Origin: Patescibacteria group bacterium
GTDB taxonomy: Bacteria > Patescibacteriota > Patescibacteriia > JBAZBY01
NCBI GenBank assembly: GCA_041671225.1
Contig: JBAZBY010000001.1
Span: 622,940 to 686,939 of the forward strand
DNA length: 64,000 nucleotides
Direction: 5' to 3'
Shown here: piece by piece, positions 23,039 to 41,066 of the stretch
Position numbering within the stretch: the stretch's first letter is position 1
Layout: every line of letters starts with the position of its first letter
The notes under the pieces: generated by a model
Seen by the model: the letters and a program-made list of their open reading frames with translations, nothing else
Told to the model about the DNA's origin: nothing
Databases searched by the model: none
Program-made: the position numbers and the translations under genes

Positions 23039-23389
23039 ATGAAAGCAGCACATAAAGATGCACAGCGCATTCATCGTCATCACCGCGTCCGCGCGCGCGT
23101 GAAGGGCACTGCAGAGAGACCACGACTGGTCATTTCTCGTACACTCAAGCACATTGCTGCGCAGATCATTGATGATACCGTTGGGAGAACACTCGCCGCA
23201 GCACTGGACACAGAAATTAAAGAAAAGAAGAGCGGCAAAGAGCGTGCCGCAGCCGTCGGAGCTTTGCTCGCGGAAAAGGCGAAGAAGGCAGGTATTACGC
23301 AAGTGGTTTTTGATCGCGGTGGCCATAAGTATCACGGACGAGTTGCTGCACTGGCCGATGCTGCACGTAGTGGAGGTCTCCAGTTTTAA
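23039..23389 (+). CDS. rplR: 50S ribosomal protein L18
   Basis: [21 protein letters not shown]... Confidence 0.88.
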
Positions 23390-23398
23390 AAATGCATT

Positions 23399-23950: not shown

Positions 23951-23953
23951 ATT

Positions 23954-24454: not shown

Positions 24455-24462
24455 GGGGTTAC

Positions 24463-25743: not shown

Positions 25744-25752
25744 AATAGCGCT

Positions 25753-26337
25753 ATGACGGCCGCGAAATTAAAAACCGTCGTTATTCTGGGCTCACAGGGT
25801 TCAGGAAAAGGCACGCAGGCAAAACTCCTGGCTGAGCGTTTTGGGTTTGTTCATATTGAAGTCGGAGCGATCCTGCGGAAAAAAGCGCAGGAAGAGAGCG
25901 ATGAAGGCAGAAATGTTGATGCAATGCTCAAGCAGGGAATTCTTTTGCCATTCGATTTGGTTATGAGTCTTGTGCGTGCGGAGGTTGCGGCGCAACCAAT
26001 GACAACATCGCTCGTTTTTGATGGCACGCCACGACGACCTATTGAGATTTCGTATTGGGAGAAAGCATTACCAGAAATGGGTCGCGCATTCACTGATGTA
26101 TTGCTTATTACGCTTCATGAGCAGAAGGCGATTGAAAGGATGTCCCTTCGTGCACAGAAAGAAAAACGAGATGATGACACCCCTCACGCCATTGCCGAGC
26201 GACTCAAAAATTTTAAAGAAAGCACCGCACCGGTGATTGACCATTATCGCAAGGAAGGTATTCTTCGAGAAATCAATGGGGATCAAACAATTGATGAGGT
26301 TCATGCGGATATTGTCAACATACTTGATCTCGCATGA
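25753..26337 (+). CDS. adk: adenylate kinase
   Basis: P-loop GSQGSGKGTQA. Confidence 0.9.
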   Translation: MTAAKLKTVVILGSQGSGKGTQAKLLAERFGFVHIEVGAILRKKAQEESDEGRNVDAMLKQGILLPFDLVMSLVRAEVAAQPMTTSLVFDGTPRRPIEISYWEKALPEMGRAFTDVLLITLHEQKAIERMSLRAQKEKRDDDTPHAIAERLKNFKESTAPVIDHYRKEGILREINGDQTIDEVHADIVNILDLA

Positions 26338-27086
26338 TTACCACCAATGAACAGACAATTGCGCGTTTAGAAAAAAGTGGCCGTATTCTTGCAAAGGCAT
26401 TACAGAAGACTGCAGCAGCTGTTGCGCCAGGCATGAGTACCAAGGACCTCGATGTCATTGCACAGGAATCAATTGAGCAACAAGGGGGCACCCCTGCGTT
26501 TTTGAATTACAGTGGTTTCCCGGCAAGTCTTTGTACCTCACGAAATCATATTGTGGTCCATGGGATCCCCAGCAAAGATGAGAAGCTGCAGGAGGGTGAT
26601 ATTATTGGTCTCGACCTTGGTGTGAATTTTGAAGGTGCTTTTACGGATATGGCGGTTACGGTATCTGTCGGTCCCATTCCCGAAGAAGTCCAGCGGCTTA
26701 TCACCACAACTCGGAAGTCACTTACCGCAGGACTTGATGTGCTTCATGCAGGAGTGCGCACGGGAGATATTGGAGCAGCGGTTCAGGCCGTCGCGGAGGC
26801 AAGTGGGTACGGCGTTGTTCGTGACTTTGTCGGGCATGGCGTGGGCGCGGCAGTACACGAAGAACCGCAGATTCCGAATGTTGGACGTGCTGGCTTTGGA
26901 GCGGTGCTGCCGCTTGGCAGTGTCATTGCTATTGAGCCAATGATCAATATGGGCGGGCCGGGCGTTACGGTGCAGGATGATCGCTGGGCTGTCGCAACGA
27001 ATGATAGAGGACTTTCTGCTCATTTTGAAGTCACGGTGCGTATCACAGAAAAGGGCTTTTCATATATTACGCCGCCATTTTTATGA
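26334..27086 (+). CDS. map: type I methionine aminopeptidase
   Basis: 250 aa; metal-binding D/D/H/E/E pattern typical of MetAP. Confidence 0.9.
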   Translation: MITTNEQTIARLEKSGRILAKALQKTAAAVAPGMSTKDLDVIAQESIEQQGGTPAFLNYSGFPASLCTSRNHIVVHGIPSKDEKLQEGDIIGLDLGVNFEGAFTDMAVTVSVGPIPEEVQRLITTTRKSLTAGLDVLHAGVRTGDIGAAVQAVAEASGYGVVRDFVGHGVGAAVHEEPQIPNVGRAGFGAVLPLGSVIAIEPMINMGGPGVTVQDDRWAVATNDRGLSAHFEVTVRITEKGFSYITPPFL

Positions 27087-27478
27087 AAAAGGTACTCGGT
27101 ATCGATTGGGGACGCGCGCATATTGGTATTGCGATATCCGATGCAGATCATCGTTGGGCATTTCCACGATCGGAAGTCGCACCAGGTAAGCCTTTTTTTG
27201 ACACCCTTGCGGTACTCCAAAAGGAAGAGGATATTGGAGCAGTGGTCGTTGGGTATCCATTACCACTCGGCAAGGCAGGTTCGGTAGGCGAGCAGCAGCT
27301 CAAAGATGTTGAGATATTTGCCGCAGATCTCCGTATTCGTTTGGGGGTGCCCGTGGCGTTGATGGATGAACGTATGAGTAATATGAAGGCAGCGATACAG
27401 CAATATCCTGATGCGGGTGACCATGAACGCGCGGCGGCAATGCTTCTTTCTGAGTATCTTGCACGCGCAGCATTATGA
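27083..27478 (+). CDS. ruvX: Holliday-junction resolvase-like protein YqgF/RuvX
   Basis: MKKVLGIDWGRAHIGIAISD... Confidence 0.8.
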   Translation: MKKVLGIDWGRAHIGIAISDADHRWAFPRSEVAPGKPFFDTLAVLQKEEDIGAVVVGYPLPLGKAGSVGEQQLKDVEIFAADLRIRLGVPVALMDERMSNMKAAIQQYPDAGDHERAAAMLLSEYLARAAL

Positions 27479-28581
27479 TATACGTTGTAGGATTTTTTGG
27501 GGCACTTCTCCTTGGGCTTGTTGTCACACCACTCGTGATCCGGCTTGCACGTCATTTGGGCTTACTTGATGTTCCTGCAGTTGCCCCGCATCGCAAAATT
27601 CACAAAAAACCAATGCCCCTTCTTGGTGGTAGCGCGATCATGTTTGCGTTTTTTTTCATGACGGTACTTTTCATGTTGCACGGGGATATCTTTAGCGGTG
27701 AACTCGGCGCACTTTCTCGCAAGGCATTTTGGGGAATTGCTTTTGGTGCAGCTTTTCTCTTGGTTGGTGGTTTTCTTGATGATAAATATGATCTTCGCGC
27801 CCGTTGGAAATTTGTGTACCCGATTGCGGCAACGTTTTCACTGATCGTTGGTGGTATTGGCGTACTGTTCATCACAAATCCGTTTGGTGGGATTTTTAAT
27901 CTTGAGCAAATACGCATCACACTCTTTTCACTGGATGGGATACCCTATCAACTCGTTCTCTTTGCTGACGTGTTCACCTTTCTCTGGCTGATGGGGTCGA
28001 TGTTTACAACAAAATTTCTTGATGGCATGGACGGACTTGTCACAGGAATTGGTGTGATAGGTGCGGTTGTTATTTTTCTTCTTTCACTTCGTCCTGAGGT
28101 TGCACAGCCAGAACTCGCGCTTCTTTCAGCTATTTTTGGAGGAGCACTCCTTGGATTTTTCCCGTATAATTTTTACCCTGCACGTATTTTTCTTGGCGAG
28201 GGAGGTTCCCTTTTTGTTGGTTTTATTCTTGGGACGCTTTCGATCCTTGCAGGGGGGAAGATTGCAACCGCCTTGTTGATTCTTGGCCTCCCCATTCTTG
28301 ACGTGGCGTGGGCGATTATGCGAAGACTCATGGCTGGTCGTTCACCATTTTCTGCAGACCGGCAGCATCTTCATCATCGTCTGCTTGATTCTGGCCTGCC
28401 GCATCGCACGGTCGTCCTCTTTTTTTATGGTCTCACTCTTCTTTTTGGATTTTCGACACTTTTTGTACGTGGAGCAATGAAGGCGGCAGTACTGGTCATC
28501 CTTGTATTTGTGATGGCACTTCTTGCATACCTTGCGATCCGTTTTGAAAACCGCAAGGTGAACCACAAGCCTCATGAGTAG
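27475..28581 (+). CDS. MraY/WecA-family polyprenyl-phosphate sugar-1-phosphate transferase (glycosyltransferase family 4)
   Basis: 10-11 TM; DDKYDL and FLDGMDGLVTG signature motifs. Confidence 0.75.
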   Translation: MIYVVGFFGALLLGLVVTPLVIRLARHLGLLDVPAVAPHRKIHKKPMPLLGGSAIMFAFFFMTVLFMLHGDIFSGELGALSRKAFWGIAFGAAFLLVGGFLDDKYDLRARWKFVYPIAATFSLIVGGIGVLFITNPFGGIFNLEQIRITLFSLDGIPYQLVLFADVFTFLWLMGSMFTTKFLDGMDGLVTGIGVIGAVVIFLLSLRPEVAQPELALLSAIFGGALLGFFPYNFYPARIFLGEGGSLFVGFILGTLSILAGGKIATALLILGLPILDVAWAIMRRLMAGRSPFSADRQHLHHRLLDSGLPHRTVVLFFYGLTLLFGFSTLFVRGAMKAAVLVILVFVMALLAYLAIRFENRKVNHKPHE

Positions 28582-29080
28582 ATCCATTGTTAATCTTTTT
28601 TTGATTCTGATTCTTTTTGGAGGTTTTTTTACGGCGTTCTTTTATGAAGATTTAGCGCGTGAGGCTCGTTTTTTGTGGACTGATATAAGGGAGTTGTTTC
28701 AGCCATTGGAAGAGTGGGAGGTTGTACTTGAAGATGGAACTGAACTTTCTCTTCCCGTTGCGCAGACTGAAGATGAATTGCAACGCGGATTAATGAATCG
28801 TCGATCTCTTGAAGATGGAGAGGGGATGATTCTTGCTTACGACGAGCCATCTTTGCATAGCATCTGGATGAAGAATGTGTATTTTAATCTTGATCTACTA
28901 TGGGTGGAAAATGATACTGTTATGTATCTCCTTCCTAATACGCAACGAGCAGCAGGTGTGGAGAATCCGCCAATCTATTCACCGGACGCGCCTTCAACTT
29001 ATGTTGTGGAATTCCCCGCTGGATATGCTAAAACGCATGCTATTGAGCAGGGGGGTATTCTGATGATTAAGAAGGATTGA
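28574..29080 (+). CDS. DUF192-family protein (COG1430) with N-terminal membrane anchor
   Basis: GLMNRRSLEDGEGMIL...SIWMKNVYFNLDLLWV pattern of DUF192. Confidence 0.65.
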   Translation: MSRSIVNLFLILILFGGFFTAFFYEDLAREARFLWTDIRELFQPLEEWEVVLEDGTELSLPVAQTEDELQRGLMNRRSLEDGEGMILAYDEPSLHSIWMKNVYFNLDLLWVENDTVMYLLPNTQRAAGVENPPIYSPDAPSTYVVEFPAGYAKTHAIEQGGILMIKKD

Positions 29081-29112
29081 CGCCATACACAGGCTTTGGT
29101 AGGATATCCGCC

Positions 29113-29439
29113 ATGAGTACACAGAATGAAAGTAAGGATTTTGCGGTGATTGCCACAGGCGGTAAGCAGTATGTTGTGCACCCTGGCCAAACAATTGCCG
29201 TGGAAAAATTAGAAGAAGCAGAGGGCCAGGTTACCTTTGAGAAGGTGCTTCTGCAGTCAAAAGCAGGAAAAGTCACTATCGGCACTCCTGAGATTTCAGG
29301 CGCCAAGGTTATGGGTACCATTCTCAAAACTGCCAAAGGCAAAAAGATCATGGTCGTGAAATACAAGAACAAGACGCGCCAACGCAGCTCAAATGGTCAT
29401 CGCCAGACCCGGGCTACTGTGAAGATAGAAAGCGTCTAG
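29113..29439 (+). CDS. rplU: 50S ribosomal protein L21
   Basis: internal ATG of ORF 29077..29439: ...FAVIATGGKQYVVHPGQ... Confidence 0.85.
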   Translation: MSTQNESKDFAVIATGGKQYVVHPGQTIAVEKLEEAEGQVTFEKVLLQSKAGKVTIGTPEISGAKVMGTILKTAKGKKIMVVKYKNKTRQRSSNGHRQTRATVKIESV

Positions 29440-30062
29440 TTTGCCTTTGAGGGACGTGATGCAGTAAGCTCTTCGCGGCGTGCGAAGGCATTTTCAAGTG
29501 TCTGGTCATCCGCGTACGCAATATCAGCACCCATCGGGAGTCCTCGGGCGAGACGCGTCATGCGTATTCCCAATTTTGTGAAACGCTTTGTGAGATATTG
29601 CGTGGTTGCTTCGCCTTCCATCGTCGGATCCAGTGCAATGATAAGCTCTTGCACCTTTTTTTCTTTGATGCGCTTCTCGAGTGCATCCACCGTAAGTCGC
29701 TCGGGAGTTATGCCAGCAGTTGGCCGAAGCACTCCACCAAGAATGTGGTATTTTCCTGCAAAAGCGCCACTGCGTTCCAACGCATGAAGATCTGAACTTT
29801 CTGCAACAACACAAAGATGTTCATCACTACGGTTTGCATCCCCGCAGATATTGCAGGGACTTTTTTCTGCAAAATCAAAGCAGATGACGCATGTTGCGAT
29901 GGTTCGCGAGAGATCGCTGATCGCATCTGCCATCGCCTCTCGCTCGCTCTTTGGCAGCTTTAACAGCGTGTAGATATAACGCTCCGCAGTTTTTGGGCCA
30001 ACACCTGGGAGCTGTGTGAAGCGCTCAATGAGGCGCTGGATAACGAAGGGGAATCGTGCCAT
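29436..30062 (-). CDS. recR: recombination protein RecR
   Basis: HhH motif LPGVGPKTAERY, C4 zinc finger CVICFDFAEKSPCNIC, Toprim domain. Confidence 0.92.
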   Translation of the reverse strand: MARFPFVIQRLIERFTQLPGVGPKTAERYIYTLLKLPKSEREAMADAISDLSRTIATCVICFDFAEKSPCNICGDANRSDEHLCVVAESSDLHALERSGAFAGKYHILGGVLRPTAGITPERLTVDALEKRIKEKKVQELIIALDPTMEGEATTQYLTKRFTKLGIRMTRLARGLPMGADIAYADDQTLENAFARREELTASRPSKAN

Positions 30063-30358
30063 TAGGAGAAGTTTGGCATGGAAATATCGCCGCTCTGCAT
30101 TTTCTTTACCATGATTTTTTGTACTTCTTTCACGGCACTCTGTACAGCCTCGCGGATACCATCCTCCACATTCTTTTTGTTGTCAGGGGAGAGAAGTTCA
30201 GGGTCAATATTCACGGACTGTATTTCCTGATTACCGTCCATAACAATGGTAATTTTTCCGCCTTTTGCTTCACCAGTGACGGTTTCCTGCGCAAGCATAT
30301 TCTTCATTTCATTTGCCTGACTGCGAAGATCTTTGATCTGTTTGAGTTTATTGAACAT
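30062..30358 (-). CDS. ybaB: nucleoid-associated protein YbaB/EbfC
   Basis: MFNKLKQIKDLRSQANEMKNMLAQETVTGEAKGGKITIVMDGNQEIQSVNIDPELL; start taken at internal Met. Confidence 0.85.
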   Translation of the reverse strand: MFNKLKQIKDLRSQANEMKNMLAQETVTGEAKGGKITIVMDGNQEIQSVNIDPELLSPDNKKNVEDGIREAVQSAVKEVQKIMVKKMQSGDISMPNFS

Positions 30359-30368
30359 AGGTTCGAAT

Positions 30369-31775
30369 TTAAAATGGTGAATCTTGCGCGAAGGCATTGT
30401 CGCCGACATGATGGCGTTCAAGGCTTCTAAATGAGGCAAGTTCTTTATCAAAAAAGAGATTGATCATGCCGGTGGGACCGTTACGGTGTTTTGCGACATG
30501 GATTTCTGCGCGATTGACATCTTCGGGCGGGAGGTCGCGCTCATGCACGGCTGGGCGATAGATGAACATAACAACGTCAGCATCCTGTTCAATGGTTCCG
30601 GATTCTCGCAGGTCAGAAAGTTTTGGAATTGGAGGGTGGCGCATTTCAGTGGCACGTGAGAGTTGTGAGAGCGCGAGAACCGGAACGTTCAGTTCCTTTG
30701 CAAGTCCCTTGAGTCCGCGCGTAATTTCTGCAACTTGTTGCACGCGATTCTCGACACTTGCCGAACCTTCCAATAGTTGGAGGTAGTCAATGACAATCAT
30801 ACCAATGCCATGTTCAGACTGCAGGCGACGCGCCTTTGTGCGCATTTCCATGATGTTACTCATTGCAGAGTCGTCGATGTAAATTGGGGCTTCAGCGAGC
30901 ACGCCCATTGCATGGCCGATCTTTGGAAAGTCATCGTCACCTTCTGCGTCAGAAAGTTTGCCTGTGCGCAGTTTCCAGAGTGGGACGCCTGCTTCGCTAC
31001 AAATAAGGCGATCGACCAATTGCTCTTTTGACATTTCCAAAGAAAAGATGGCCACTGGAACCTTGTGTTCTGTGGCAACATGTCGACACATGTCCAAGGC
31101 AAGACTTGTTTTTCCCACTGAAGGGCGTGCGGCGAGCACGACGAGATCAGATTTTTGCAGACCAGCAAGGAGGTTGTCTATATCGGGGAAGCCTGTTGGT
31201 ATGCCACGGAGTTGGCCGGTATTTTTGTGGAGTTCATCGATGCGGTCGAATGCATCAGAGAGAATATTCCGAATGGGAATAAAGTTTTGTTTGAGGTAGC
31301 GTTGCGATACTTGAAAAAGTGCTTGTTCCGCACGGTCGAGAACACGCTCCACTTCTTCCTCTTCACCATAACCAAAGCCACTGATATCAGCCGCAGCGGT
31401 AATAAGGCGACGCAGCGTTGCCTTGCGTTGCACGATATTCGCGTAGTGCACCACGTGCGATGACGTCGGTACGGTATTTGCAAGCTCAGTGAGATAGCCC
31501 CGACCGCCAATAATATCCAGCATTTTTTTCTCCTGTAGGCGATTGGTCAGCGAGATCACGTCAATTGGTTCTCGCTGCGCATAGACGTCAAGCATCGACT
31601 CATACACCTTGCGATGCGTGTCTTTATAGAAGTCTTCTGGGTGCAGAGAGTCCGCAACGCGAATCATCGCGTCCTTATCAATAAGGAGCGCACCGAGCAC
31701 GCTTTGCTCAGCTTCGAGGTTCTGTGGGGGGATTTTTGTTACCGAATCGGCCATAAGCCACCTTTTTGTGCTCAC
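30369..31775 (-). CDS. dnaB: replicative DNA helicase DnaB
   Basis: N-terminal domain (IPPQNLEAEQSVLGALL) plus RecA-like Walker A (GKTS) and downstream motifs; 468 aa. Confidence 0.92.
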   Translation of the reverse strand: MSTKRWLMADSVTKIPPQNLEAEQSVLGALLIDKDAMIRVADSLHPEDFYKDTHRKVYESMLDVYAQREPIDVISLTNRLQEKKMLDIIGGRGYLTELANTVPTSSHVVHYANIVQRKATLRRLITAAADISGFGYGEEEEVERVLDRAEQALFQVSQRYLKQNFIPIRNILSDAFDRIDELHKNTGQLRGIPTGFPDIDNLLAGLQKSDLVVLAARPSVGKTSLALDMCRHVATEHKVPVAIFSLEMSKEQLVDRLICSEAGVPLWKLRTGKLSDAEGDDDFPKIGHAMGVLAEAPIYIDDSAMSNIMEMRTKARRLQSEHGIGMIVIDYLQLLEGSASVENRVQQVAEITRGLKGLAKELNVPVLALSQLSRATEMRHPPIPKLSDLRESGTIEQDADVVMFIYRPAVHERDLPPEDVNRAEIHVAKHRNGPTGMINLFFDKELASFRSLERHHVGDNAFAQDSPF

Positions 31776-31888
31776 GCATTGTACCCCAGGGGGTGCCTGT
31801 CAGCAAGCCGTGACTCCCCAGGCCATACACAGCTCTCTCCACAGCGTTTATTGCATAAAAATCGGGTATTCCGTACACTACCCGCACT

Positions 31889-32422
31889 ATGATTGATCGT
31901 GCGACACCCTTTGTTATTTTTGACACGGAAACCACGGGTCTTGAGCCAACCGAGGGGCATGACATTATTGAGATAGGGGCAGAAAAACTTGTGAACGGCA
32001 AGGTTGTCGATGTGTTTGATTCACTTCTCACAACAGAGCGGACGCTGGATCCTGATGTTGTCGCTATCCATGGGATCACGAATGCGCTCATTGAGAAAGA
32101 GGCGCGGCTCTCCGCGGAGGTTATTTCTGACTTTCTTGGTTTTATTGAAGGTACGGTACTCGTGGCACATAATGCAGGTTTTGATATTGCTTTTCTGAAT
32201 GAACATCTGCGCCGGCAGGGTGTGCCACCAATTGAGAATAGAGTATTGGATACCTTAGCAATTGCTCGTCGCGAACTCGTACTTCCAAGTTATTCATTGC
32301 AGAGCGTGGCAATTTATCTGAAGGTGCCACAACCAAAAGCGCACCGCGCACTCGCAGACGTTCAGACCACGCGCAAGGTTTTTTTGAAGCTTATTGAGCG
32401 CGCAAAACAGCGCCGCAGCTAG
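31889..32422 (+). CDS. DnaQ-like (DEDDh) 3'-5' exonuclease
   Basis: FVIFDTETTGL, HNAGFDIAFL, HRALADV exonuclease motifs. Confidence 0.8.
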   Translation: MIDRATPFVIFDTETTGLEPTEGHDIIEIGAEKLVNGKVVDVFDSLLTTERTLDPDVVAIHGITNALIEKEARLSAEVISDFLGFIEGTVLVAHNAGFDIAFLNEHLRRQGVPPIENRVLDTLAIARRELVLPSYSLQSVAIYLKVPQPKAHRALADVQTTRKVFLKLIERAKQRRS

Positions 32423-32486
32423 GGCTTGTCAGAATACAATTTTTGCTTTATACTCCTTCAGTTCTTTGCATAATAGTAACCGCCCC

Positions 32487-32531
32487 GCGGGCGCCTATAG
32501 CTCCGTGGCACGCGCACCTGGTTTTAACCAG
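32487..32531 (+). pseudogene. degenerate 5'-part copy of tRNA-Lys (acceptor/D/anticodon arm, anticodon loop 1 nt short)
   Basis: gcgggcgcctatagctccgtggcacgcgcacctggttttaaccagg vs intact gene at 32783. Confidence 0.55.
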
Positions 32532-32573
32532 GTGTATGCGTAAGTACATATCATTTTGAAATAATAATCACTT

Positions 32574-32650
32574 CGCGGGCGCCTATAGCTCAGTGGCACG
32601 CGCACCTGGTTTTAACCAGGGTGGAGTGGGGTCGAGGCTGCCGAGGAGCA
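32574..32650 (+). pseudogene. second degenerate tRNA-Lys copy, with decayed T arm
   Basis: ttcgcgggcgcctatagctcagtggcacgcgcacctggttttaaccaggg...gtggggtcgagg. Confidence 0.5.
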
Positions 32651-32712
32651 ACTGAACTGCTTCAGTTGCGTGCAGCCGAGACGGGCGACGCGTTGTCGCC
32701 AAAGGCGACCGC

Positions 32713-32756
32713 GTCGCACCCTATGAGTTCGTCGCACCCTATGAGTTCGTCGCACC
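32713..32756 (+). repeat. 18-nt tandem direct repeat gtcgcaccctatgagttc x2.4
   Basis: directly visible; sits between the degenerate and intact tRNA-Lys copies next to perfect hairpins (gcaactgaa/ttcagttgc). Confidence 0.75.
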
Positions 32757-32782
32757 ATACCTTAACATGCTGCCCCCATGGG

Positions 32783-32858
32783 GCGCCCATAGCTCAGTTG
32801 GTAGAGCACCTGGCTTTTAACCAGGGTGTCGGGGGTTCGAATCCCTCTGGGCGCACCA
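32783..32858 (+). tRNA. tRNA-Lys (anticodon TTT), CCA encoded
   Basis: gcgccca-ta-gctc...gagc-a-cctgg-cTTTtaa-ccagg-gtgtc-ggggg-ttcgaat-ccctc-tgggcgc-a-cca; flanked by 13-bp inverted repeat gctgcccccatgg / ccatgggggcagc. Confidence 0.88.
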
Positions 32859-32888
32859 TGGGGGCAGCACCAGCGCATACTTCGTGCG

Positions 32889-32907
32889 TCCCTCTGGGCG
32901 CACCACG
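32889..32907 (+). repeat. duplicated tRNA-Lys 3'-end fragment (att-like)
   Basis: tccctctgggcgcaccacg identical to the 3' end of the intact tRNA-Lys. Confidence 0.6.
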
Positions 32908-32928
32908 AAGTGATTATGAGAATGTAAG

Positions 32929-32947
32929 AATCCCTCTGGGCGCACCA
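32929..32947 (+). repeat. second duplicated tRNA-Lys 3'-end fragment (att-like)
   Basis: aatccctctgggcgcacca identical to the 3' end of the intact tRNA-Lys. Confidence 0.6.
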
Positions 32948-33173
32948 CGGGGCGGTTCATGGTAGAGAGCATTCACCCTTTTGGCTTCAAAGGAGAATTT
33001 GTGTTTGGAAATAAAAGAAGTGGGCGTTCATGATCTCTTGACAATATTCTTCCGCAGTGCATACTTTGGGCACTGTTCATTCACTGAAGGCATCCTTGCG
33101 TCGCTTCTTCGCTTGAGGTGGTGTTTGGTGTCTTCGTAAAGGCGCTCTACGCGCAAAGCGAGGTGAAAGAAAC

Positions 33174-33497
33174 GTGAAATTTTCCGTGAAGGGAATGATC
33201 ACGCAGGAGATGCTCTGCTTGTTGGGGCAACACGTGCTCCAGGTCATTGCATCGTCGTTTTTCCGGGATACTCTGCCCCGGCAGCGGCTGATGAGCTGGA
33301 CGCAATCCTGCACGTTCACGAACGATTCTGCAGCGCCGGAAATCTCCATTTACCTGCCGACCAGCAGAAAGCAGCTTCACCGTGAGGCCTATGCGCGAAT
33401 GCGCATCGTCGGGCTGATCGAAGCCCTGACGCACATGAAACCGAACGTGCGTTTCACGTACCTCAATAAGGAGGAGCTTGCTGCGCTGGTTGTGTAG
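33174..33497 (+). CDS. hypothetical protein (coding strand ambiguous; overlapping minus-strand ORFs exist)
   Basis: ORF ends 16 nt before the ATPase ATG, which has a gaaggagg RBS; no recognisable domain. Confidence 0.25.
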   Translation: MKFSVKGMITQEMLCLLGQHVLQVIASSFFRDTLPRQRLMSWTQSCTFTNDSAAPEISIYLPTSRKQLHREAYARMRIVGLIEALTHMKPNVRFTYLNKEELAALVV

Positions 33498-33512
33498 GGA
33501 AGGAGGGCCCCG

Positions 33513-36371
33513 ATGTCTGCCTCACAGACCGCCCATTCGAACCGACCCGGATATCCTCTATCCGTTCAGGTCGGTTCTTTAATATGTGTTACACTATATT
33601 GTATGGTGAAAATAAAATGGTACGCGATTTCAACAGCCGATGCACTAGGAAGATTAGAATCTTCTCCTGAGGGTCTTACTACAGACGTGATCGCAGAGCG
33701 GCGCAAACGTTACGGAGAGAATCGGCTTCCTGATGCCAAGGCCCTTTCGCCTGTTGTTGTCTTTCTTCGGCAGTTTAAGAGCCCGCTCATTGCTATTCTG
33801 ATCATTGCCGCAGGACTTTCTTTGTTCCTGCGGGAGTTTATTGATGCCGTCATTATTATTGCCATACTCTTTTTTAATGCGATCATTGGATTTATTCAGG
33901 AGAGGCGCGCTGATTCAGCCCTTAAAGCACTGCAGCAAATGGCGCAATCAAGTGTTGTTGTGGTTCGTGATGGTACGGTGCAGACCATAGAGCAGATAGA
34001 ACTTGTGCCAGGTGATATTTTGGTTGTTGAGACAGGAGATATTCTTGCTGCCGACGCTCGTATTCTTGAGTACACGAATCTCAAGGTGAATGAATCAATC
34101 CTGACTGGCGAAGCAGTACCGGTACACAAAAGCAATAAAAAACTTGCAGAAAAAACAGCAATACCTGACCGTGCCAATATGCTTTTTCGGGGGACAACAG
34201 TGGTCTATGGGCGTGCGCGCGCGCTCGTAACCGCCACTGCTCTTGAAACGCAATACGGCAGCATTGTTGCCGAAGTGCAAAAGAGTGAAAACACAAGTAC
34301 CCCGATCCAGCAACGTTTCAGTACATTATCTCGCAGTATTGGCGTTGCAGTGATTGGCGTTGCACTGCTTGTCGTTGCACTTGGCATCGCGCGTGATATT
34401 CCGATTGTGGAGATGATTCTCGTTGGGCTCTCTTTAGCTGTTTCCGCCATACCAGAGGGTTTGCCGATCGTGGTGACCATTACGCTGGCCATTGGTATGT
34501 GGCGTATGGCAAAACGCAAGGCTATCGTGCGTAAACTTCCTGCGGTTGAGACGCTTGGGTCGGTGAATCTTATTGCATCTGACAAAACAGGCACGCTAAC
34601 CTTTGGTGAGATGATGGTCCAGCGTGCATTTGTTGATGAGAAGGAATTTACCGCAAGCGGCAAGGGATATCAGCGCGATGGACTCTTTTTGCTTCATAAT
34701 CACCCAGTTGATCATGTAAAAGAAAAAGGGTTGTCGCGTGCGCTGCTTCTTGGTGCACTTTGCAATAATGCATCTCTGCGTTACCCAGAAAAAAATGCAG
34801 AAAATCCGCATCCAGAAACCGTGGGGGATCCCACAGAAATTGCATTGCTTGTCGGTGCCGTGAAGGGCGGTATTGAGCCTAATAATTTGAAGGAGCGGCA
34901 TTCCCGCATCGGGGAGATTCCTTTTGACTCTGATAAGAAATATATGATGACCATCCATAAGGATGGCAAAAAGGAACTGGTCGCAATCAAGGGCGCACCT
35001 GAGAAGATCCTCGCCATGAGTTCAAAGATTTTTGTGGGCGGAAAGGTTCATAAACTTACCGCTGCGCTGCGTGATATTATAGAGCGTGAATACGCGCAAA
35101 TGGCGCATAACAGCCTGCGGGGTATTGCGGTTGCTGAGTTGAGTTCGCACAACGGCATGAAGGATGCTGCGCGTGTTTCGAAGGAAAAGAATCTAACGTT
35201 TGTTGGGCTTTTTGGTATTAGTGACGCAATACGCGAAGAAGCGGCAACAACTATTTCTGTTGCAGCGCGTGCGGGCATCCGAACCATTATGATTACCGGT
35301 GATCATAAAGATACTGCGATTGCTATTGCATATGAGCTTGAGATCTTGCCCAAGGATGGTTCGAAGGAAGATATTGATGCTGCGGTTATTGATGGTTTGA
35401 CGCTTGATGAGCTTTCTGATGATGAGTTACTTAAACGCTTACCAAAGCTGCGCGTTGCTGCGCGCGTTTCTCCTGAACATAAACTGCGCATCGTTCGTCT
35501 TGCAAAGCAGCAGGGGAACGTTGTTGCGGTGACTGGTGATGGCGTGAATGATGCTCCGGCTCTGGTAGAAGGGGATATCGGCATAGCCGTTGATCAACAG
35601 AGCACCGATGCCGCAAAAGGCGCATCCGACATTCTTCTTACCGATGGGAATTTTGCGACAATTATTGGCGCAGTTGAAGAAGGGCGTACGATTTTTGCGA
35701 ACATTCGCCGCGTGACATTGTATTTGCTTTCTACCAATATCGTTGAGGCATTACTTATCCTTATCACGCTTGCTTTCAATTTTCCTTTGCCTCTTCTGCC
35801 AATTCAGATTCTTTGGTTGAATGTGGTGACCGATACCTTTCTTGATATCTCTATCGGCACAGAACCAAAACATGCGACGGTCATGGAGGATGGGCCAAAT
35901 AGGCGCGAAGAACACATTATTAATGCACATACTCTTGGCCGCTTACTCTTTCTTGCAACGATCATGCTCGGCATCGTGTTCTTTGTGTATCGTTTTACTT
36001 TGGCAAATACACTAGACCTTCGTTATGTTTATGCAATGACGCTCACCGCGCTTGCCGTTTCTCAGTGGTTCAATTCCTTTAATGTACGGAGCGGGCGTGA
36101 ATCGCTCTTTCGCGTTGGCCTGTTGCGCAACAAATTTCATCTTGGCGCACTCGGCGTGGTTCTCTCATTGCAGCTTATTGCACTCTATGTGCCGCCAGTA
36201 ACAAAAGCACTTCACTTGGTTCCCCTGGCGCTCCGTGATTGGCTGTTTATTATTGCACTCGGCAGTCTTGTTTTTGTCGCCGAAGAGGTTCGAAAATTTG
36301 CGTTCCGGCACTGGCGCAGCGCACCGCGCAATGTACATGGGCCGGCAGAACCTGCGGAAAACGCGCGTTGA
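33513..36371 (+). CDS. P-type cation-transporting ATPase (type II, Ca2+-ATPase-like)
   Basis: DKTGTLT phosphorylation site, PEGLP in TM4, MITGDH, TGDGVNDAPAL; 952 aa. Confidence 0.88.
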   Translation: MSASQTAHSNRPGYPLSVQVGSLICVTLYCMVKIKWYAISTADALGRLESSPEGLTTDVIAERRKRYGENRLPDAKALSPVVVFLRQFKSPLIAILIIAAGLSLFLREFIDAVIIIAILFFNAIIGFIQERRADSALKALQQMAQSSVVVVRDGTVQTIEQIELVPGDILVVETGDILAADARILEYTNLKVNESILTGEAVPVHKSNKKLAEKTAIPDRANMLFRGTTVVYGRARALVTATALETQYGSIVAEVQKSENTSTPIQQRFSTLSRSIGVAVIGVALLVVALGIARDIPIVEMILVGLSLAVSAIPEGLPIVVTITLAIGMWRMAKRKAIVRKLPAVETLGSVNLIASDKTGTLTFGEMMVQRAFVDEKEFTASGKGYQRDGLFLLHNHPVDHVKEKGLSRALLLGALCNNASLRYPEKNAENPHPETVGDPTEIALLVGAVKGGIEPNNLKERHSRIGEIPFDSDKKYMMTIHKDGKKELVAIKGAPEKILAMSSKIFVGGKVHKLTAALRDIIEREYAQMAHNSLRGIAVAELSSHNGMKDAARVSKEKNLTFVGLFGISDAIREEAATTISVAARAGIRTIMITGDHKDTAIAIAYELEILPKDGSKEDIDAAVIDGLTLDELSDDELLKRLPKLRVAARVSPEHKLRIVRLAKQQGNVVAVTGDGVNDAPALVEGDIGIAVDQQSTDAAKGASDILLTDGNFATIIGAVEEGRTIFANIRRVTLYLLSTNIVEALLILITLAFNFPLPLLPIQILWLNVVTDTFLDISIGTEPKHATVMEDGPNRREEHIINAHTLGRLLFLATIMLGIVFFVYRFTLANTLDLRYVYAMTLTALAVSQWFNSFNVRSGRESLFRVGLLRNKFHLGALGVVLSLQLIALYVPPVTKALHLVPLALRDWLFIIALGSLVFVAEEVRKFAFRHWRSAPRNVHGPAEPAENAR

Positions 36372-36386
36372 TGAATCATCTAAAAT

Positions 36387-36818
36387 ATGTTATGGTTGCT
36401 TGTGATGAACAAGCGATTTCTTGGTGCTGCAACGATTTTTTTACTCGTTGTTGCTGGCGTTGGGGTGGCTTTCCTCGGCTTTCTGAAATCAGATGAGCGC
36501 GAGGGAATTGTGGAGGGAACAAAACAGTCCCAACTGGTGCAGGTGCGCACATTGACCATCCGCACAGTAAACGGTGAAACACTTGAGTTTGCGCCAAATG
36601 TATTGGTGTATATTGATGAACAGATAGGTGAACAAACACAGGGAAGAGAATCAATACATCAAGCCCTTCGTTCCAATGAAAGCGGCATCGCAGTGTTTCA
36701 GTTACCGCAAGGCGATTATACCCTTCGTTCTGGTAGCGCAGAGTGGTATGGCGTTCTGAATGTTCGACTGGAACAAAATGCAGAACTTTATCTTAATCTT
36801 CATTCACTTACCGAATGA
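36387..36818 (+). CDS. hypothetical membrane-anchored/secreted protein
   Basis: N-terminal hydrophobic segment; no recognisable domain. Confidence 0.4.
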   Translation: MLWLLVMNKRFLGAATIFLLVVAGVGVAFLGFLKSDEREGIVEGTKQSQLVQVRTLTIRTVNGETLEFAPNVLVYIDEQIGEQTQGRESIHQALRSNESGIAVFQLPQGDYTLRSGSAEWYGVLNVRLEQNAELYLNLHSLTE

Positions 36819-38227
36819 TTGACTTTTCTCAGCGTATTCTTAGTTCCACAATAAAGGATGCGGTTGGCGCACCAGCCATGATGGCTGGTTGGGTTCAGAG
36901 CGTCCGCAAGATGGGGAAAATTCTCTTTATTGATTTGCGGGATAAGGACGGCATCACGCAGTTAGTCGTTAACCCAGAAAGTGCCGCACAAGCAACTGCT
37001 CGGCGTATTCGACCGGAGTGGGTGATTGGCGTACGCGGCAGCGTCAAGGATCGTGGCGAAGCGCATGTGAATGAAAAAATTGCCAGCGGTACCGTTGAGA
37101 TGGCTGTTGATGAGATTGAAGTTTTAAATGAGGCGCTCACTCCACCTTTTGAAATTGATGACCGCAAGGATGTCAGTGAAGAGATTCGACTGCAGTACCG
37201 ATATCTTGATTTGCGACATGAACGCATGCAGAAGAATATCCGCATGCGGCATGACATAGTGCGCTATATGCGTACCTTCCTTTCGGATCGTGATTTTACA
37301 GAAATCGAAACCCCAACACTGACAAAGGGCACGCCAGAAGGAGCACGTGAATATGTGGTTCCATCGCGACTCTATCCTGGGAATTTTTATGTGTTGCCGC
37401 AATCGCCGCAACAATTCAAGCAGTTATTGATGGTTGCCGGCTTTGAGCGTTATTTTCAATTCGCCCGTTGCTTCCGCGATGAAGACCAGCGTGGCGATCG
37501 ACAACCGGAGTTCACGCAACTCGATTTGGAGATGAGCTTCATACAGCAGGATGACATTCTTGCACTCATGGAAGAATTATTTACAAGCCTCGTGGAAACA
37601 TTGTACCCGCATAAACATATCACCAAAAAACCGTGGCCGCGTATTACCTATGCGGAGGCAATGAAGCAGTACCATACCGATAAACCAGACTTGCGTATTC
37701 ATCCTGACGATCCGGATGAACTGGCCTTTGCGTTTGTTACCGATTTTCCTTTGTTTGAAAAAACTGCGGATGGCAAGCTTGCGAGTGCACATCACCCTTT
37801 TACGATGCCCGCCGCGGAGGATTTGGAGACGTTTGAAGAACATCCGCTCACCGCAAACTCACAAGCGTATGATATGGTTTTGAACGGCAATGAGATTGGT
37901 TCTGGTAGTATTCGTATCCATAATCGAGATTTGCAAAACCGTATTTTTAAGACGCTCGGCCTCCCCGATGATGAAATCGAACAGCGCTTTGGTCATATGC
38001 TCCGTGCATTCGAATATGGCGCGCCTCCACATGGCGGCATGGCGCCCGGCATCGATCGTATTGTGATGTTACTGCAGAATGAACCGAATATTCGTGAAGT
38101 CATGGCCTTTCCAAAGACGGGGGATGCGCGTGATTTGATGATGGGTGCACCCTCGGAGATTCCCGAAGAACAGATCGCGAGCGTGCATATACAGACAGTG
38201 ATTGATGATAAAGAGAAGAAAACATGA
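36815..38227 (+). CDS. aspS: aspartyl-tRNA synthetase, short form without the bacterial GAD insertion domain
   Basis: FYVLPQSPQQFKQLLMVAGFERYFQFARCFRDEDQRGDRQPEFTQLDLEMSF and GSGSIRIH...GAPPHGGMAPGIDRIVMLL class II motifs. Confidence 0.85.
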   Translation: MIDFSQRILSSTIKDAVGAPAMMAGWVQSVRKMGKILFIDLRDKDGITQLVVNPESAAQATARRIRPEWVIGVRGSVKDRGEAHVNEKIASGTVEMAVDEIEVLNEALTPPFEIDDRKDVSEEIRLQYRYLDLRHERMQKNIRMRHDIVRYMRTFLSDRDFTEIETPTLTKGTPEGAREYVVPSRLYPGNFYVLPQSPQQFKQLLMVAGFERYFQFARCFRDEDQRGDRQPEFTQLDLEMSFIQQDDILALMEELFTSLVETLYPHKHITKKPWPRITYAEAMKQYHTDKPDLRIHPDDPDELAFAFVTDFPLFEKTADGKLASAHHPFTMPAAEDLETFEEHPLTANSQAYDMVLNGNEIGSGSIRIHNRDLQNRIFKTLGLPDDEIEQRFGHMLRAFEYGAPPHGGMAPGIDRIVMLLQNEPNIREVMAFPKTGDARDLMMGAPSEIPEEQIASVHIQTVIDDKEKKT

Positions 38228-38230
38228 CCT

Positions 38231-38563
38231 ATGCGGCTTTCTGGGTTACAAAAAGATATTTTGAAACGCGCGGTATTATTTCGTGAACCACAGATAACCC
38301 GGGCACAGTTTGCAGCATATTATGAAAAGCCCGTTAAGGCGCTGAGTAAGGATCAACAGAATGCGCTTACCACGAGTCTTGAGCGATTGATCGATAAAGG
38401 GCTTCTTGTGGGATTCGGAAGGCGGACTCAAGAAAAATGGTTCATTGAATCGGTTCGGCTCACACCGCAAGGTCGTCGGATCGCTCGCCCACTTTTTGGC
38501 ACACAGGGCGCCTTATCACTTACGCGCCGCAGTAAGCCCGGCTCTGCCGGAAAGAAACACTAA
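38231..38563 (+). CDS. small winged-helix-like hypothetical protein with GSAGKK tail
   Basis: 110 aa; C-terminal ...RRSKPGSAGKKH encoded by repeat copy 2. Confidence 0.4.
   Translation: MRLSGLQKDILKRAVLFREPQITRAQFAAYYEKPVKALSKDQQNALTTSLERLIDKGLLVGFGRRTQEKWFIESVRLTPQGRRIARPLFGTQGALSLTRRSKPGSAGKKH
38538..38556 (+). repeat. palindromic hairpin element CCGGCtctGCCGGaaagaa (copy 2 of 3), in frame (PGSAGKK)
   Basis: 13-bp core identical to 17032 and 39176. Confidence 0.6.
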
Positions 38564-40565: not shown

Positions 40566-41060
40566 ATGCTTGCCGCACTGGAACACGCTATTTTTTCTGC
40601 AGCCAATCCGATACTTGCGACCTTCTTATGGTCCATGCTTCCTGTAACAGAATTGCGCGCGACCATCCCGCTCGCCATCACCGCATATGGACTTTCCTCA
40701 TGGACCGCGTATGCTTTATCCGTTTTTGGAACGAGTACCATTACTTTTCTACTGCTTTTGCTGCTGGATCCTGCGGTGCGCCTGCTCCGACATATCGGTT
40801 TTATCGATCGCTTCATGCATTGGCTTTTTGCACGCACGCGTACGCGTTTCACCAAGGAGTCGGAACGATATGGCTTCTTCCTCGCCCTTGTTATCTTTGT
40901 TGCCATTCCATTGCCGGGGACAGGAGGCTGGACAGGCGCGTTGATCGCCTATCTCTTTGGCATTCCGCTGTGGCGCGCATTTGCCGCGATCACGCTGGGG
41001 CTCGTCCTTTCCGGATTCATCGTCCTTGCAATCACCAACGGCACACTCGCCATTTTCTAA
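40566..41060 (+). CDS. small multidrug-export-family (COG2426) integral membrane protein
   Basis: LPVTELRATIPLA motif and 4 TM segments. Confidence 0.55.
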   Translation: MLAALEHAIFSAANPILATFLWSMLPVTELRATIPLAITAYGLSSWTAYALSVFGTSTITFLLLLLLDPAVRLLRHIGFIDRFMHWLFARTRTRFTKESERYGFFLALVIFVAIPLPGTGGWTGALIAYLFGIPLWRAFAAITLGLVLSGFIVLAITNGTLAIF

Positions 41061-41066
41061 AAAAAC

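What the first reader, a model, noticed from the sequence alone, without database searches (positions are those of the whole stretch)
32481..32955. tRNA-Lys graveyard: two degenerate upstream copies, one intact gene in a 13-bp flanking helix, two 3'-end duplicates
A 475-bp stretch holds five full or partial copies of one tRNA-Lys(TTT). Two decayed copies sit upstream; one has an anticodon loop 1 nt short and a divergent D loop, the other a decayed T arm. The intact gene follows. Two tandem copies of its last ~19 nt (tccctctgggcgcacca) lie downstream, which is the classic signature of repeated site-specific integration and excision at a tRNA 3' end. Yet no integrase is present. An 18-nt tandem repeat, two perfect hairpins and terminal inverted repeats (ccgccccg ... 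cggggcgg) add to the picture. The P-type ATPase block begins about 550 bp downstream of the cluster.
Basis: seen in the sequence. Interest (0 to 1): 0.6.

Follow-up and report, generated by a model that had tools for sequence, protein, structure and literature searches.

The report
Nested tRNA-Lys gene inside two dead copies
One working lysine tRNA gene in a tiny-genome (Patescibacteria) bacterium sits inside the split halves of two older dead copies of itself, and each dead copy's upstream flank still base-pairs with its own downstream flank, which ordinary phage integration scars do not explain.

Summary
Window 32478-32957 holds one intact tRNA-Lys(UUU) at 32783-32858, two 5' partial copies upstream and two 3'-end copies downstream. 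Two independent assemblies from other sequencing runs match it with 0 mismatches.

- The leader of the outermost 5' piece pairs with the trailer of the outermost 3' piece.
- The middle pieces pair with each other.
- The intact gene has its own 14-bp leader-trailer helix.
- The outer and middle helices differ by four double (compensatory) changes and no single ones.
- The middle shell is one tRNA gene split in its T loop by a 253-bp insert that carries the working gene.

Repeated integration at the tRNA 3' end does not fit. It would give only 3' fragments, and it would pair the working gene's leader with the outermost trailer. I found no integrase among the ORFs of 150 aa or more that I scanned or that relatives' contigs annotate.

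My best reading (0.45) is two rounds of T-loop disruption by a segment carrying a replacement tRNA-Lys unit, all transcribed as one about 0.5-kb rod-shaped precursor. The main rival is separate tandem duplications centred on the T arm. This is a new variant of a known kind, of moderate interest.

The parts
32426..32454 (+). Sigma-70-like promoter TTGTCA-17-TATACT, the only one upstream of the cluster. It is the probable start of a single precursor transcript.
   Evidence: It matches 10 of 12 consensus positions. The -10 box and start region TATACTCC are conserved upstream of tRNA-Lys in L002, L138 and R81, whatever the orientation.
32478..32490 (+). Leader L0 of the outer shell (AACCGCCCCGCGG).
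   Evidence: It pairs with 32945-32957 in 12 of 13 positions (pair I7).
32491..32536 (+). Outer shell (U0), 5' piece. It holds the acceptor 5' strand GCGCCTA, an altered D region, an anticodon hairpin with a 6-nt loop, and ends in the variable loop.
   Evidence: It is not detected as a tRNA.
32564..32578 (+). Leader L1 of the middle shell (ATAATCACTTCGCGG).
   Evidence: It pairs with 32903-32917 in 14 of 15 positions (pair I6).
32579..32635 (+). Middle shell (U1), 5' piece. It runs from the acceptor 5' strand to A58 of the T loop (...GTGGGGTCGA).
   Evidence: It is 97.9% identical to U0 over 47 nt. Joined in silico to 32889-32905, it gives a cloverleaf that ARAGORN accepts.
32636..32767 (+). 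Left flank of the insert that splits U1. It contains the helix GGCTGC/GCAGCC around a 9-bp hairpin (32648-32669), a two-tier hairpin (32685-32717) and the 18-nt tandem repeat (32712-32756).
   Evidence: It shows weak similarity to the region just after the promoter (p about 0.05) and to a 5' unit (p about 0.02).
32768..32782 (+). Leader L2 of the working gene.
   Evidence: Positions 32768-32781 pair perfectly (14 bp) with 32856-32869. G32782 faces the discriminator A32855.
32783..32858 (+). Intact tRNA-Lys(UUU) with encoded CCA.
   Evidence: ARAGORN. Rfam 76.5 bits. It is 98.7% identical to the tRNA-Lys of relative L138.
32856..32888 (+). Trailer T2 (CCATGGGGGCAGCA) plus a 19-nt spacer, forming the right flank of the insert.
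   Evidence: The trailer-spacer-3'-fragment order aligns with the relative R81.
32889..32917 (+). Middle shell (U1), 3' piece. It is tRNA positions 60-76 (TCCCTCTGGGCGCACCA) followed by trailer T1 (CGAAGTGATTAT).
   Evidence: It is 100% identical to the gene's last 17 nt and pairs with L1.
32928..32957 (+). Outer shell (U0), 3' piece. It is tRNA positions 57-76 (GAATCCCTCTGGGCGCACCA) followed by trailer T0 (CGGGGCGGTT).
   Evidence: It is 100% identical to the gene's last 20 nt and pairs with L0.

Best explanation
SHOWN. A single working tRNA-Lys(UUU) gene lies at the centre of two concentric shells.
- Each shell is the 5' piece and the 3' piece of an older copy of the same unit (leader + tRNA + trailer).
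- Each copy is broken in or next to the T loop.
- Each shell's leader is still complementary to its own trailer, and its acceptor strands still pair.
- The shells cannot act as tRNAs. They have a 6-nt anticodon loop and a mismatched D stem, and one lacks a T arm.

INFERRED, origin. There were two successive events. In each, a short DNA segment carrying a complete leader-tRNA-trailer unit came to lie inside the T loop of the resident copy. Each event therefore left one 5' piece upstream and one 3' piece downstream and handed the function to the incoming copy. The donor could be a copy of the same locus or a related strain's allele. The enzyme is unknown.

INFERRED, how it works now.
- The whole 0.5-kb block is transcribed from the promoter at 32426-32454.
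- It folds into a rod of three helices of about 20-22 bp, each made of 13-15 bp of leader:trailer pairing plus 7 bp of acceptor-type pairing.
- The cloverleaf sits at the tip. The encoded CCA is paired to the leader.
- The mature tRNA therefore probably has to be released from a duplex, by a double-strand-specific cut of the RNase III type followed by RNase P and 3' trimming.
- Leader-trailer pairing is under selection for the working gene in this lineage, and the shell helices appear to be kept as part of that stalk.
For: Concentric pairing:
- The RNAduplex matrix gives L0-T0 -24.2, L1-T1 -19.1 and L2-T2 -32.2 kcal/mol. Off-diagonal values run from -3.4 to -18.9.
- The minimum-energy fold of 32465-32965 reproduces all three nested helices with the cloverleaf at the centre, z = -9.4.

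Compensatory change:
- The U0 and U1 helices differ at four base pairs, all by changes on both sides (C:G to T:A three times, G:C to A:T once). There are no one-sided changes.
- The inner helix covaries between the window (GCTGCCCCCATGG:CCATGGGGGCAGC) and relative R81 (GCACTGCCCTTGG:CCAAGGGCAGTGC). That is three compensated substitutions plus a 2-bp deletion on both strands.

Split in the T loop:
- The U1 5' piece ends at A58 and its 3' piece starts at T60. Joining them in silico gives a cloverleaf that ARAGORN accepts.
- So U1 is one gene interrupted by the 253-bp segment 32636-32888, which contains the working unit.
- There are two 5' pieces and two 3' pieces, as expected if each event makes one of each.

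Age and constraint:
- Third codon positions of the neighbouring exonuclease gene are only 42-45% identical between the window and R81.
- Yet R81 has a 3' fragment in the homologous position after a homologous trailer and spacer. Its trailer CCACGGGGCGATT matches T0 at 12 of 13 positions.
- The R81 composite also folds as a nested rod, z = -4.5.

Transcription: one promoter lies upstream, and no promoter-like or terminator-like site was found on the + strand between 32475 and 33037; a second weak overlapping match lies at 32447-32474.

Lineage habit: tRNA-Pro in the same window has an uninterrupted 15-bp leader-plus-acceptor helix.

Real sequence: two independent assemblies are identical.
Against: - I identified no insertion machinery, donor or circular form.
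- There is no clear duplicated core or target-site repeat at either junction.
- The outer shell's break is not clean. About 10 nt, the T-stem 5' strand, are missing.
- The two 5' pieces share the same derived defects (6-nt loop, D region) and are 98% identical, while their leaders differ at 5 of 13 positions. That needs gene conversion between them, or duplication after inactivation, on top of the insertion model.
- The 3' fragments are 100% identical to the working gene while the 5' pieces are only 82-85% identical. This also suggests ongoing conversion or a different history for the two sides.
- The L2-type leader is also the leader of the shell-less relative L138, so the 'incoming' unit looks like the ancestral resident.
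- R81's outer helix is not significant on its own (p = 0.10). Its locus is split over two contigs, and I assumed the 18 nt between them.
- There are no RNA data, so transcription through the shells and any RNase III cut are inferences.
Confidence: 0.45

Rival explanations
1. Separate local tandem duplications centred on the T-arm hairpin, by replication slippage or template switching. In this reading an approximately 88-bp unit (about 26 nt upstream through the T loop) was duplicated on the 5' side. A 42-47-bp unit (T loop through the trailer) was duplicated on the 3' side, twice each. Nesting then follows automatically. Leader:trailer complementarity of the dead copies is kept by DNA-level correction between inverted repeats (quasi-palindrome template switching or gene conversion), or by selection on the transcript's fold.
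For: - Start-to-start spacings are 88 nt for the 5' units and 47 and 42 nt for the 3' units.
- Homology between U0 and U1 runs about 26 nt upstream and about 25 nt downstream of the tRNA part.
- All fragments seen begin in the T loop: Lys, Glu, Andersenbacteria L011 and R81. A strong G+C hairpin is a plausible switching point.
- The two 5' pieces share the same defects, as expected if a dead piece was copied.
- The spacers are far too short for element remnants.
- Template switching is documented to create and maintain hairpin complementarity in one step (bioRxiv 10.1101/2021.04.15.439925, listed).
Against: - It needs four events instead of two.
- Equal numbers of 5' and 3' pieces would be a coincidence.
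- The abutting break points of U1 (A58 | T60) would also be a coincidence, unless the hairpin tip is the hotspot.
- The 17 nt after the variable loop in U0 are unrelated to the equivalent stretch in U1, so the 88-bp 'unit' is not homologous throughout.
- Correction between arms 325-455 nt apart, always with the correct partner, is not the usual range of quasi-palindrome events.
Confidence: 0.27
2. The copies are scars of repeated site-specific integration and excision of genetic elements at the tRNA-Lys gene by a T-loop-targeting integrase. Each event left a 3' fragment, and the elements were later almost entirely deleted.
For: - The 3' fragments are exact copies of the tRNA end and start in the T loop. 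This is the known footprint of T-loop integrases, for example mycobacteriophage Ms6 (PMC1762012), and the general source of prokaryotic tRNA gene fragments (PMC9897764).
- A similar single fragment lies 186 nt after tRNA-Glu in the same window.
Against: - It does not generate 5' pieces.
- It predicts that the working gene's leader matches the outermost trailer, and the opposite is seen.
- The spacers are 30 and 25 nt.
- No integrase, recombinase or transposase turned up in the Pfam or PHROGs scans of most ORFs of 150 aa or more in the window (about 13 not scanned), or in the gene lists of relatives' contigs covering 21889-38371.
- Cluster pieces had no relevant match in viral contigs.
Confidence: 0.12
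3. The shells are working genes: split or intron-containing tRNAs whose halves are joined or held together after processing, as in archaeal split tRNAs.
For: The middle shell's two pieces together make a complete cloverleaf, which ARAGORN calls tRNA(tta). Complementary flanks bring the halves together.
Against: - The anticodon loop has 6 nt and the D stem has a mismatch.
- T54 is replaced, and the outer shell has no T-stem 5' strand.
- The complementarity is at the outer ends, not at the internal junction where a bulge-helix-bulge would be needed.
- The host is a bacterium.
- The 6-nt-loop variant was not found as a tRNA-like sequence in 241 million metagenome records.
Confidence: 0.02
4. Assembly artefact, for example strain variants of one tRNA locus concatenated by the assembler.
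For: The region is repetitive. Short-read contigs of the same organism and of R81 break inside the tRNA.
Against: Two independent assemblies from other runs reproduce the 5' side (21889-32857) and the 3' side (32829-38371) with 0 mismatches. The junction sequences between copies are unique. A different organism (R81) has a related arrangement.
Confidence: 0.01

Closest known systems
tRNA gene fragments left by integrative elements, i.e. att-site direct repeats at the T loop or 3' end (e.g. PMC9897764; Ms6 attB in the T loop, PMC1762012)
   Same: The 3' pieces are exact copies of the tRNA end, start inside the T loop and lie downstream of the intact gene. The gene stays functional.
   Different: - 5' pieces are present as well.
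- The pieces are concentric, and each pair has its own matching flanks.
- The spacers are 25-30 nt.
- There is no integrase and no element DNA.
- At least the middle copy was not rebuilt but split, and the function passed to a copy carried inside the insert.
Leader-trailer processing helices of bacterial rRNA operons (RNase III stalks; PMC10250234)
   Same: Sequences 5' and 3' of a stable RNA pair over 20 bp or more to enclose it. The pairing is kept by compensatory change. The stable RNA sits at the tip of the stalk.
   Different: Here the enclosed RNA is a single tRNA. The stalk has three tiers, and two tiers are made of dead halves of the tRNA itself. Cleavage has not been shown.
Archaeal split and intron-containing tRNA genes. 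This comparison rests on my own knowledge of Nanoarchaeum split tRNAs and Thermoproteales non-canonical introns.
   Same: A tRNA sequence is interrupted at a non-anticodon position, and complementary sequences bring the pieces together.
   Different: The complementarity is at the outer ends rather than at the splice junction. There is no bulge-helix-bulge. The halves are defective, and the host is bacterial.
Nested miniature inverted-repeat elements (MITE inside MITE)
   Same: There are terminal inverted repeats of about 20 bp, small size, no coding capacity and nesting.
   Different: No target-site duplication was seen. No other copies occur in the 64-kb window or in the collections scanned. 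The inverted repeats are the tRNA acceptor stem plus flanks, not transposase sites.

Membership tests
tRNA (Rfam RF00005) | Cloverleaf scoring above the family's gathering score | tested here: met
   The copy at 32783-32855 scores 76.5 bits against 29. ARAGORN calls it tRNA-Lys(ttt). This applies to the intact copy only.
tRNA (Rfam RF00005), partial copies | The partial copies are detectable as tRNAs | tested here: not met
   There is no match for 32491-32536 or 32579-32635, even at E<=10 on a 571-nt stretch. ARAGORN finds nothing in either 5' piece alone.
Integrase-generated att fragments at a tRNA gene | A direct repeat identical to the tRNA 3' part, starting in the T loop or anticodon loop | tested here: met
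   Blocks of 17 nt and 20 nt are 100% identical and start at T60 and G57.
Integrase-generated att fragments at a tRNA gene | An integrase gene next to the tRNA-proximal junction, or at least in the element | tested here: not met
   No PF00589, resolvase or transposase hit in 38 ORFs of 150 aa or more. None appears in the annotated relatives' gene lists covering 21889-38371. The rest of the genome and about 13 window ORFs were not searched.
Integrase-generated att fragments at a tRNA gene | Element DNA (kb scale) lies between the repeats, and only 3' fragments are produced | tested here: not met
   The spacers are 30 and 25 nt, and two 5' pieces are present.
Integrase-generated att fragments at a tRNA gene | The original leader stays with the working gene, so it matches the outermost trailer | tested here: not met
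   L2 pairs best with T2 (-32.2) and not with T0 (-18.9). L0 pairs with T0.
Leader-trailer processing stalk (rRNA-type, RNase III substrate) | The 5' and 3' flanks form a helix of 20 bp or more enclosing the stable RNA | tested here: met
   There are three helices of 20-22 bp, including the acceptor-type pairs. Duplex energies are far below shuffles, and the helices are present in the minimum-energy fold. This is in silico only.
Leader-trailer processing stalk (rRNA-type, RNase III substrate) | Pairing is maintained by compensatory substitutions | tested here: met
   There are four double changes between U0 and U1. The inner helix differs between the window and R81 by three compensated substitutions plus a matched 2-bp deletion. 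The sample is small, and DNA-level correction is not excluded.
Leader-trailer processing stalk (rRNA-type, RNase III substrate) | Cleavage of the helix by RNase III during maturation | not testable with these tools
   This needs RNA end mapping or an in-vitro assay.
Split or BHB-intron tRNA genes | The halves rebuild a canonical tRNA (7-nt anticodon loop, intact D and T arms) | tested here: not met
   The loop is 6 nt (TTTTAA), the D stem has a T:C mismatch, and T54 is replaced. The outer shell lacks the T-stem 5' strand.
Split or BHB-intron tRNA genes | Complementary sequences at the internal junction form a bulge-helix-bulge | tested here: not met
   The complementarity is between the outer leader and the outer trailer (pairs I6 and I7). 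I saw no BHB at 32635/32889.
MITE-like transposable element | Terminal inverted repeats plus a target-site duplication | tested here: inconclusive
   Inverted ends are present. No convincing direct repeat flanks either insert. The shared 4-5-mers at the junctions are at chance level.
MITE-like transposable element | Multiple dispersed copies | tested here: not met
   There are no other copies of any cluster piece in the 64-kb window. The viral scans gave nothing relevant, and the single metagenome scan of the 6-nt-loop motif gave no tRNA-like hit.

The most novel reading that the evidence does not exclude
The leader-tRNA-trailer unit may itself be a miniature self-targeting cassette of about 150-250 bp with no genes. 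It would insert into the T loop of the resident tRNA-Lys gene and replace its function, mobilised in trans or by a repair pathway. Each takeover would add one shell. Alternatively or in addition, the shells may have been recruited as a multi-tier double-stranded stalk that this reduced bacterium needs to process or stabilise the tRNA precursor. The flips in orientation of the whole promoter+tRNA unit among relatives would fit a unit that moves.
Probability: 0.15. Interest if true: 0.8.

Novelty: new variant of a known kind. Interest (0 to 1): 0.55.

Why it matters
Partial tRNA genes are normally read as integration scars and ignored. Here the scars are ordered like onion layers, and each layer keeps its own base-paired flanks.

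This means one of two things. Either there is a way of renewing a tRNA gene that has not been described, with a replacement copy landing inside the old one. Or dead tRNA halves are being kept as structural parts of the precursor RNA.

Both readings bear on how bacteria of the Candidate Phyla Radiation, with minimal RNA-processing equipment, make mature tRNA. Both are directly testable with RNA end mapping and long-read population data.

There is also a practical point. Concentric pairing of flanks is a simple criterion that separates this kind of locus from ordinary att-site fragments in genome annotation.

Tried and rejected
- **Genome scan wasted.** I scanned genome contigs with the 3'-end motif CCCTCTGGGCGCACCA.
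- **6-nt-loop variant.** I scanned metagenome contigs with GCACCTGGTTTTAACCAGG. It gave 12 hits, none tRNA-like, and the window's own genome is not in that collection. The viral scan gave 0 hits.
- **Cluster pieces in viral contigs.** Scans for the 18-nt repeat, the hairpin and the 3' fragment plus trailer gave one chance hit inside a ligase-like coding region, and otherwise nothing.
- **Closer relatives.** Only one genome, R81, lies between 72% and 100% exonuclease identity, and its locus is broken inside the tRNA.
- **Flipping between the inverted leader and trailer.** I considered this as an explanation for the opposite orientation in R81 and L138. I rejected it because the promoter is inverted together with the tRNA.
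- **Five decayed tandem full copies.** Rejected, because that model gives no reason for L0 to match T0 specifically.
- **Reverse-transcriptase stops at m1A58 as the origin of the 3' fragments.** Rejected. The fragment starts vary (positions 56-60), and the fragments carry homologous trailers, so they are DNA-level copies.
- **The ORF 32621-32965 (114 aa).** It has no family hit and spans the tRNA, so I treat it as spurious.
- **Flank homology tests.** I tested the insert's left flank against the promoter-proximal region and against a 5' unit, and did the analogous tests at tRNA-Glu. The results were only marginal (p = 0.02-0.11).
- **R81 outer-helix duplex test.** It was not significant (p = 0.10).
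Full report
**What is there**

The window comes from a Patescibacteria (CPR) chromosome. The exonuclease next to the cluster is 100% identical to a protein named 'MAG: 3'-5' exonuclease [Patescibacteria group bacterium]' on a 1,028,488-bp contig. The neighbours are housekeeping genes:
- upstream: DnaB, RecR and an RNase_T-type exonuclease;
- downstream: a conserved 107-aa ORF, a P-type ATPase and a class II aminoacyl-tRNA synthetase.

ARAGORN and Rfam find exactly one tRNA in the region, tRNA-Lys(UUU) at 32783-32858, scoring 76.5 bits.

The repeat search and blastn confirm the partial copies:
- Two upstream copies of the leader plus 5' part. They are 97.9% identical to each other over 47 nt and 82-85% identical to the gene.
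- Two downstream copies of the 3' end. They are 100% identical to the gene's last 17 and 20 nt.

The 18-nt tandem repeat, the hairpins and the terminal inverted repeat are also as described. Neither upstream copy is recognisable as a tRNA, even with permissive settings.

Two independent Logan assemblies from other sequencing runs reproduce the sequence with no mismatch. One covers 21889-32857 and the other 32829-38371. The arrangement is therefore not an assembler's invention.

- The leader of the first 5' piece (32478-32490) is complementary to the trailer of the LAST 3' piece (32945-32957).
- The leader of the second 5' piece (32564-32578) is complementary to the trailer of the MIDDLE 3' piece (32903-32917).
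- The intact gene has its own 14-bp leader-trailer helix, 32768-32781 with 32856-32869 (pairs I7, I6, I1).

In a 3x3 matrix of duplex energies, the matched combinations are L0-T0 -24.2, L1-T1 -19.1 and L2-T2 -32.2 kcal/mol. All six mismatched combinations are weaker.

With the acceptor-type pairs included, each tier is a helix of 20-22 bp and lies far outside shuffled controls. The minimum-energy fold of the 501-nt block reproduces the three nested tiers with the cloverleaf at the tip, z = -9.4.

The outer and middle helices differ at four base pairs. All four changed on both strands, and there is no one-sided change.

**Anatomy of the layers**

- The middle layer's 5' piece runs to A58 of the T loop. 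Its 3' piece starts at T60.
- Joined in silico, they give a cloverleaf that ARAGORN accepts. The middle layer is therefore one tRNA gene interrupted in its T loop by 253 bp (32636-32888), and that segment contains the working gene with its flanks.
- The outer layer's 5' piece stops in the variable loop and its 3' piece starts at G57, so about 10 nt are missing.
- Both 5' pieces carry a 6-nt anticodon loop, a mismatched D stem and an altered D loop. They are dead as tRNAs.

**Relatives**

Relatives are listed by exonuclease identity to the window:

| Relative | Identity | State of the tRNA-Lys locus |
|---|---|---|
| L002 | 72% | Plain single tRNA-Lys, + strand, different acceptor stem, no flanking helix |
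| L138 | 69% | Plain single tRNA-Lys with the window's acceptor stem and a 7-bp flanking helix, opposite strand |
| R81 (contigs L001 + L005, same sample) | 81% | tRNA on the opposite strand, with a 13-bp leader-trailer helix that covaries with the window's; then a 3' fragment with trailer CCACGGGGCGATT |

In R81, the order trailer, spacer, 3' fragment aligns with the window's. The upstream region aligns weakly but colinearly with the window's promoter and outer leader. The composite, with 18 nt that I assumed across the contig gap, folds as a nested rod with z = -4.5.

Third codon positions of the exonuclease gene are only 42-45% identical between the two organisms. Neutral sequence should therefore be nearly unrecognisable, yet the shell trailer is 12/13 identical. 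This suggests the shell helix has been kept rather than merely not yet decayed. It rests on one relative, and R81's outer helix alone is not significant (p = 0.10).

**Why the integration-scar reading is insufficient**

Integration at a tRNA 3' end or T loop leaves only 3' fragments. It also keeps the original leader next to the working gene, so that leader should match the outermost trailer. The opposite is observed.

The spacers are 30 and 25 nt. No integrase, recombinase or transposase appeared in the ORFs I scanned or that relatives' contigs annotate. About 13 ORFs of 150 aa or more were not scanned, at 7.9-10.2 kb, 16.1-21.9 kb, 40628-41149, 49650-50174 and 56880-57410.

Pieces of the cluster have no relevant match in viral contigs.

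The reading is not baseless, though. T-loop break points are what T-loop integrases produce (PMC1762012; PMC9897764). A classical-looking single 3' fragment follows tRNA-Glu in this window and a tRNA-Lys(CTT) in an Andersenbacteria genome.

**Best explanation and its main rival**

The most economical history is two events. In each, a segment carrying a complete leader-tRNA-trailer unit came to lie in the T loop of the resident copy. This explains four things:
- the equal numbers of 5' and 3' pieces;
- the abutting break points of the middle layer;
- the matched flanks of each layer;
- the position of the working gene at the centre.

It does not identify a mechanism. It also needs gene conversion to explain why the two 5' pieces share the same defects.

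The rival is four separate tandem duplications with the T-arm hairpin as a common break point. Complementarity would then be kept by template-switch correction between inverted repeats (bioRxiv 10.1101/2021.04.15.439925) or by selection. It fits the short spacings (88, 47 and 42 nt) and the shared defects, and I cannot exclude it.

Under either history the present-day consequence is the same:
- One promoter at 32426-32454 lies upstream, and no terminator-like site was found on the + strand before the next gene's promoter.
- The precursor should therefore contain all layers and fold as a three-tier rod.
- The encoded CCA is paired to the leader, so release of the tRNA probably needs a double-strand-specific cut first, as for rRNA leader-trailer helices (PMC10250234).

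That step is inference.

**Verdict**

The locus is a new variant of a known kind (tRNA gene fragments), and it is unusual in its concentric, self-pairing architecture.

My confidence in the architecture is about 0.9, in the insertion history about 0.45, and in a maintained role for the shells about 0.35.

Noticed in passing
window 43776-43794 (tRNA-Glu is at 43515-43589): A 19-nt exact copy of the tRNA-Glu 3' end (ATTCCCCTTGGGGCTACCA, starting in the T loop) lies 186 nt downstream of the intact gene. An inverted copy of the T-arm region lies at 43638-43651. I saw no 5' piece and no matching leader-trailer pairing, so this looks like a classical single fragment.
   Followed up: partly
window 2273-2287 / 2347-2361 (tRNA-Pro is at 2281-2355): tRNA-Pro has an uninterrupted, perfect 15-bp helix made of leader plus acceptor strand against acceptor strand plus trailer, extended by CCTTGAAGG on both sides. 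Weak look-alikes of its D arm (2208-2221, 87 nt upstream) and of its 3' end (2419-2431, 76 nt downstream) may be very decayed partial copies or chance.
   Followed up: partly
L001/L005, L002:6701-6776, L138:528-603, L139:6988-7062, L140:6613-6687: The tRNA-Lys transcription unit next to the exonuclease gene, including its promoter with the conserved TATACTCC, lies on either strand in different relatives. It is + in the window, L002 and L140, and - in R81, L138 and L139. That implies repeated inversion or re-insertion of the unit.
   Followed up: partly
L002:6799-8631 and L143:860-2677: A DUF6311 gene (about 605-610 aa) lies between the tRNA-Lys locus and the small ORF/ATPase genes in L002, and upstream of the same genes in L143 (whose contig holds no tRNA). 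It is absent from the window, R81 and L138. So there has been a gene loss or gain right at the rearranging tRNA locus.
   Followed up: no
L011:341-359 (Candidatus Andersenbacteria, MHHS01000001.1): A tRNA-Lys(CTT) at 180-254 is followed 86 nt later by a 19-nt copy of its T-loop-to-acceptor end (CGAATCCCTCTGGGCGCAC). Two G+C hairpins lie in between.
   Followed up: no
window 33174-33497: A 107-aa ORF upstream of the P-type ATPase has no family hit in Pfam or PHROGs. It has only two listed homologues among 5.8 billion proteins, one of which is its own genome's copy. Syntenic ORFs of 103-138 aa are present in L002, L138 and R81.
   Followed up: partly
window 55994-56776: A heliorhodopsin gene (Pfam PF18761, E = 3.6e-100) is present in this Patescibacteria genome.
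   Followed up: no
L126, L129, L130, L133, L135 (metagenome contigs): The motif GCACCTGGTTTTAACCAGGTG recurs in unrelated metagenome contigs. It is followed 20-35 nt later by a second palindrome, AACCGTTTTAACGGTT or AACCGTTTCAACGGTT. This is a paired-hairpin element of unknown nature, unrelated to tRNA.
   Followed up: no
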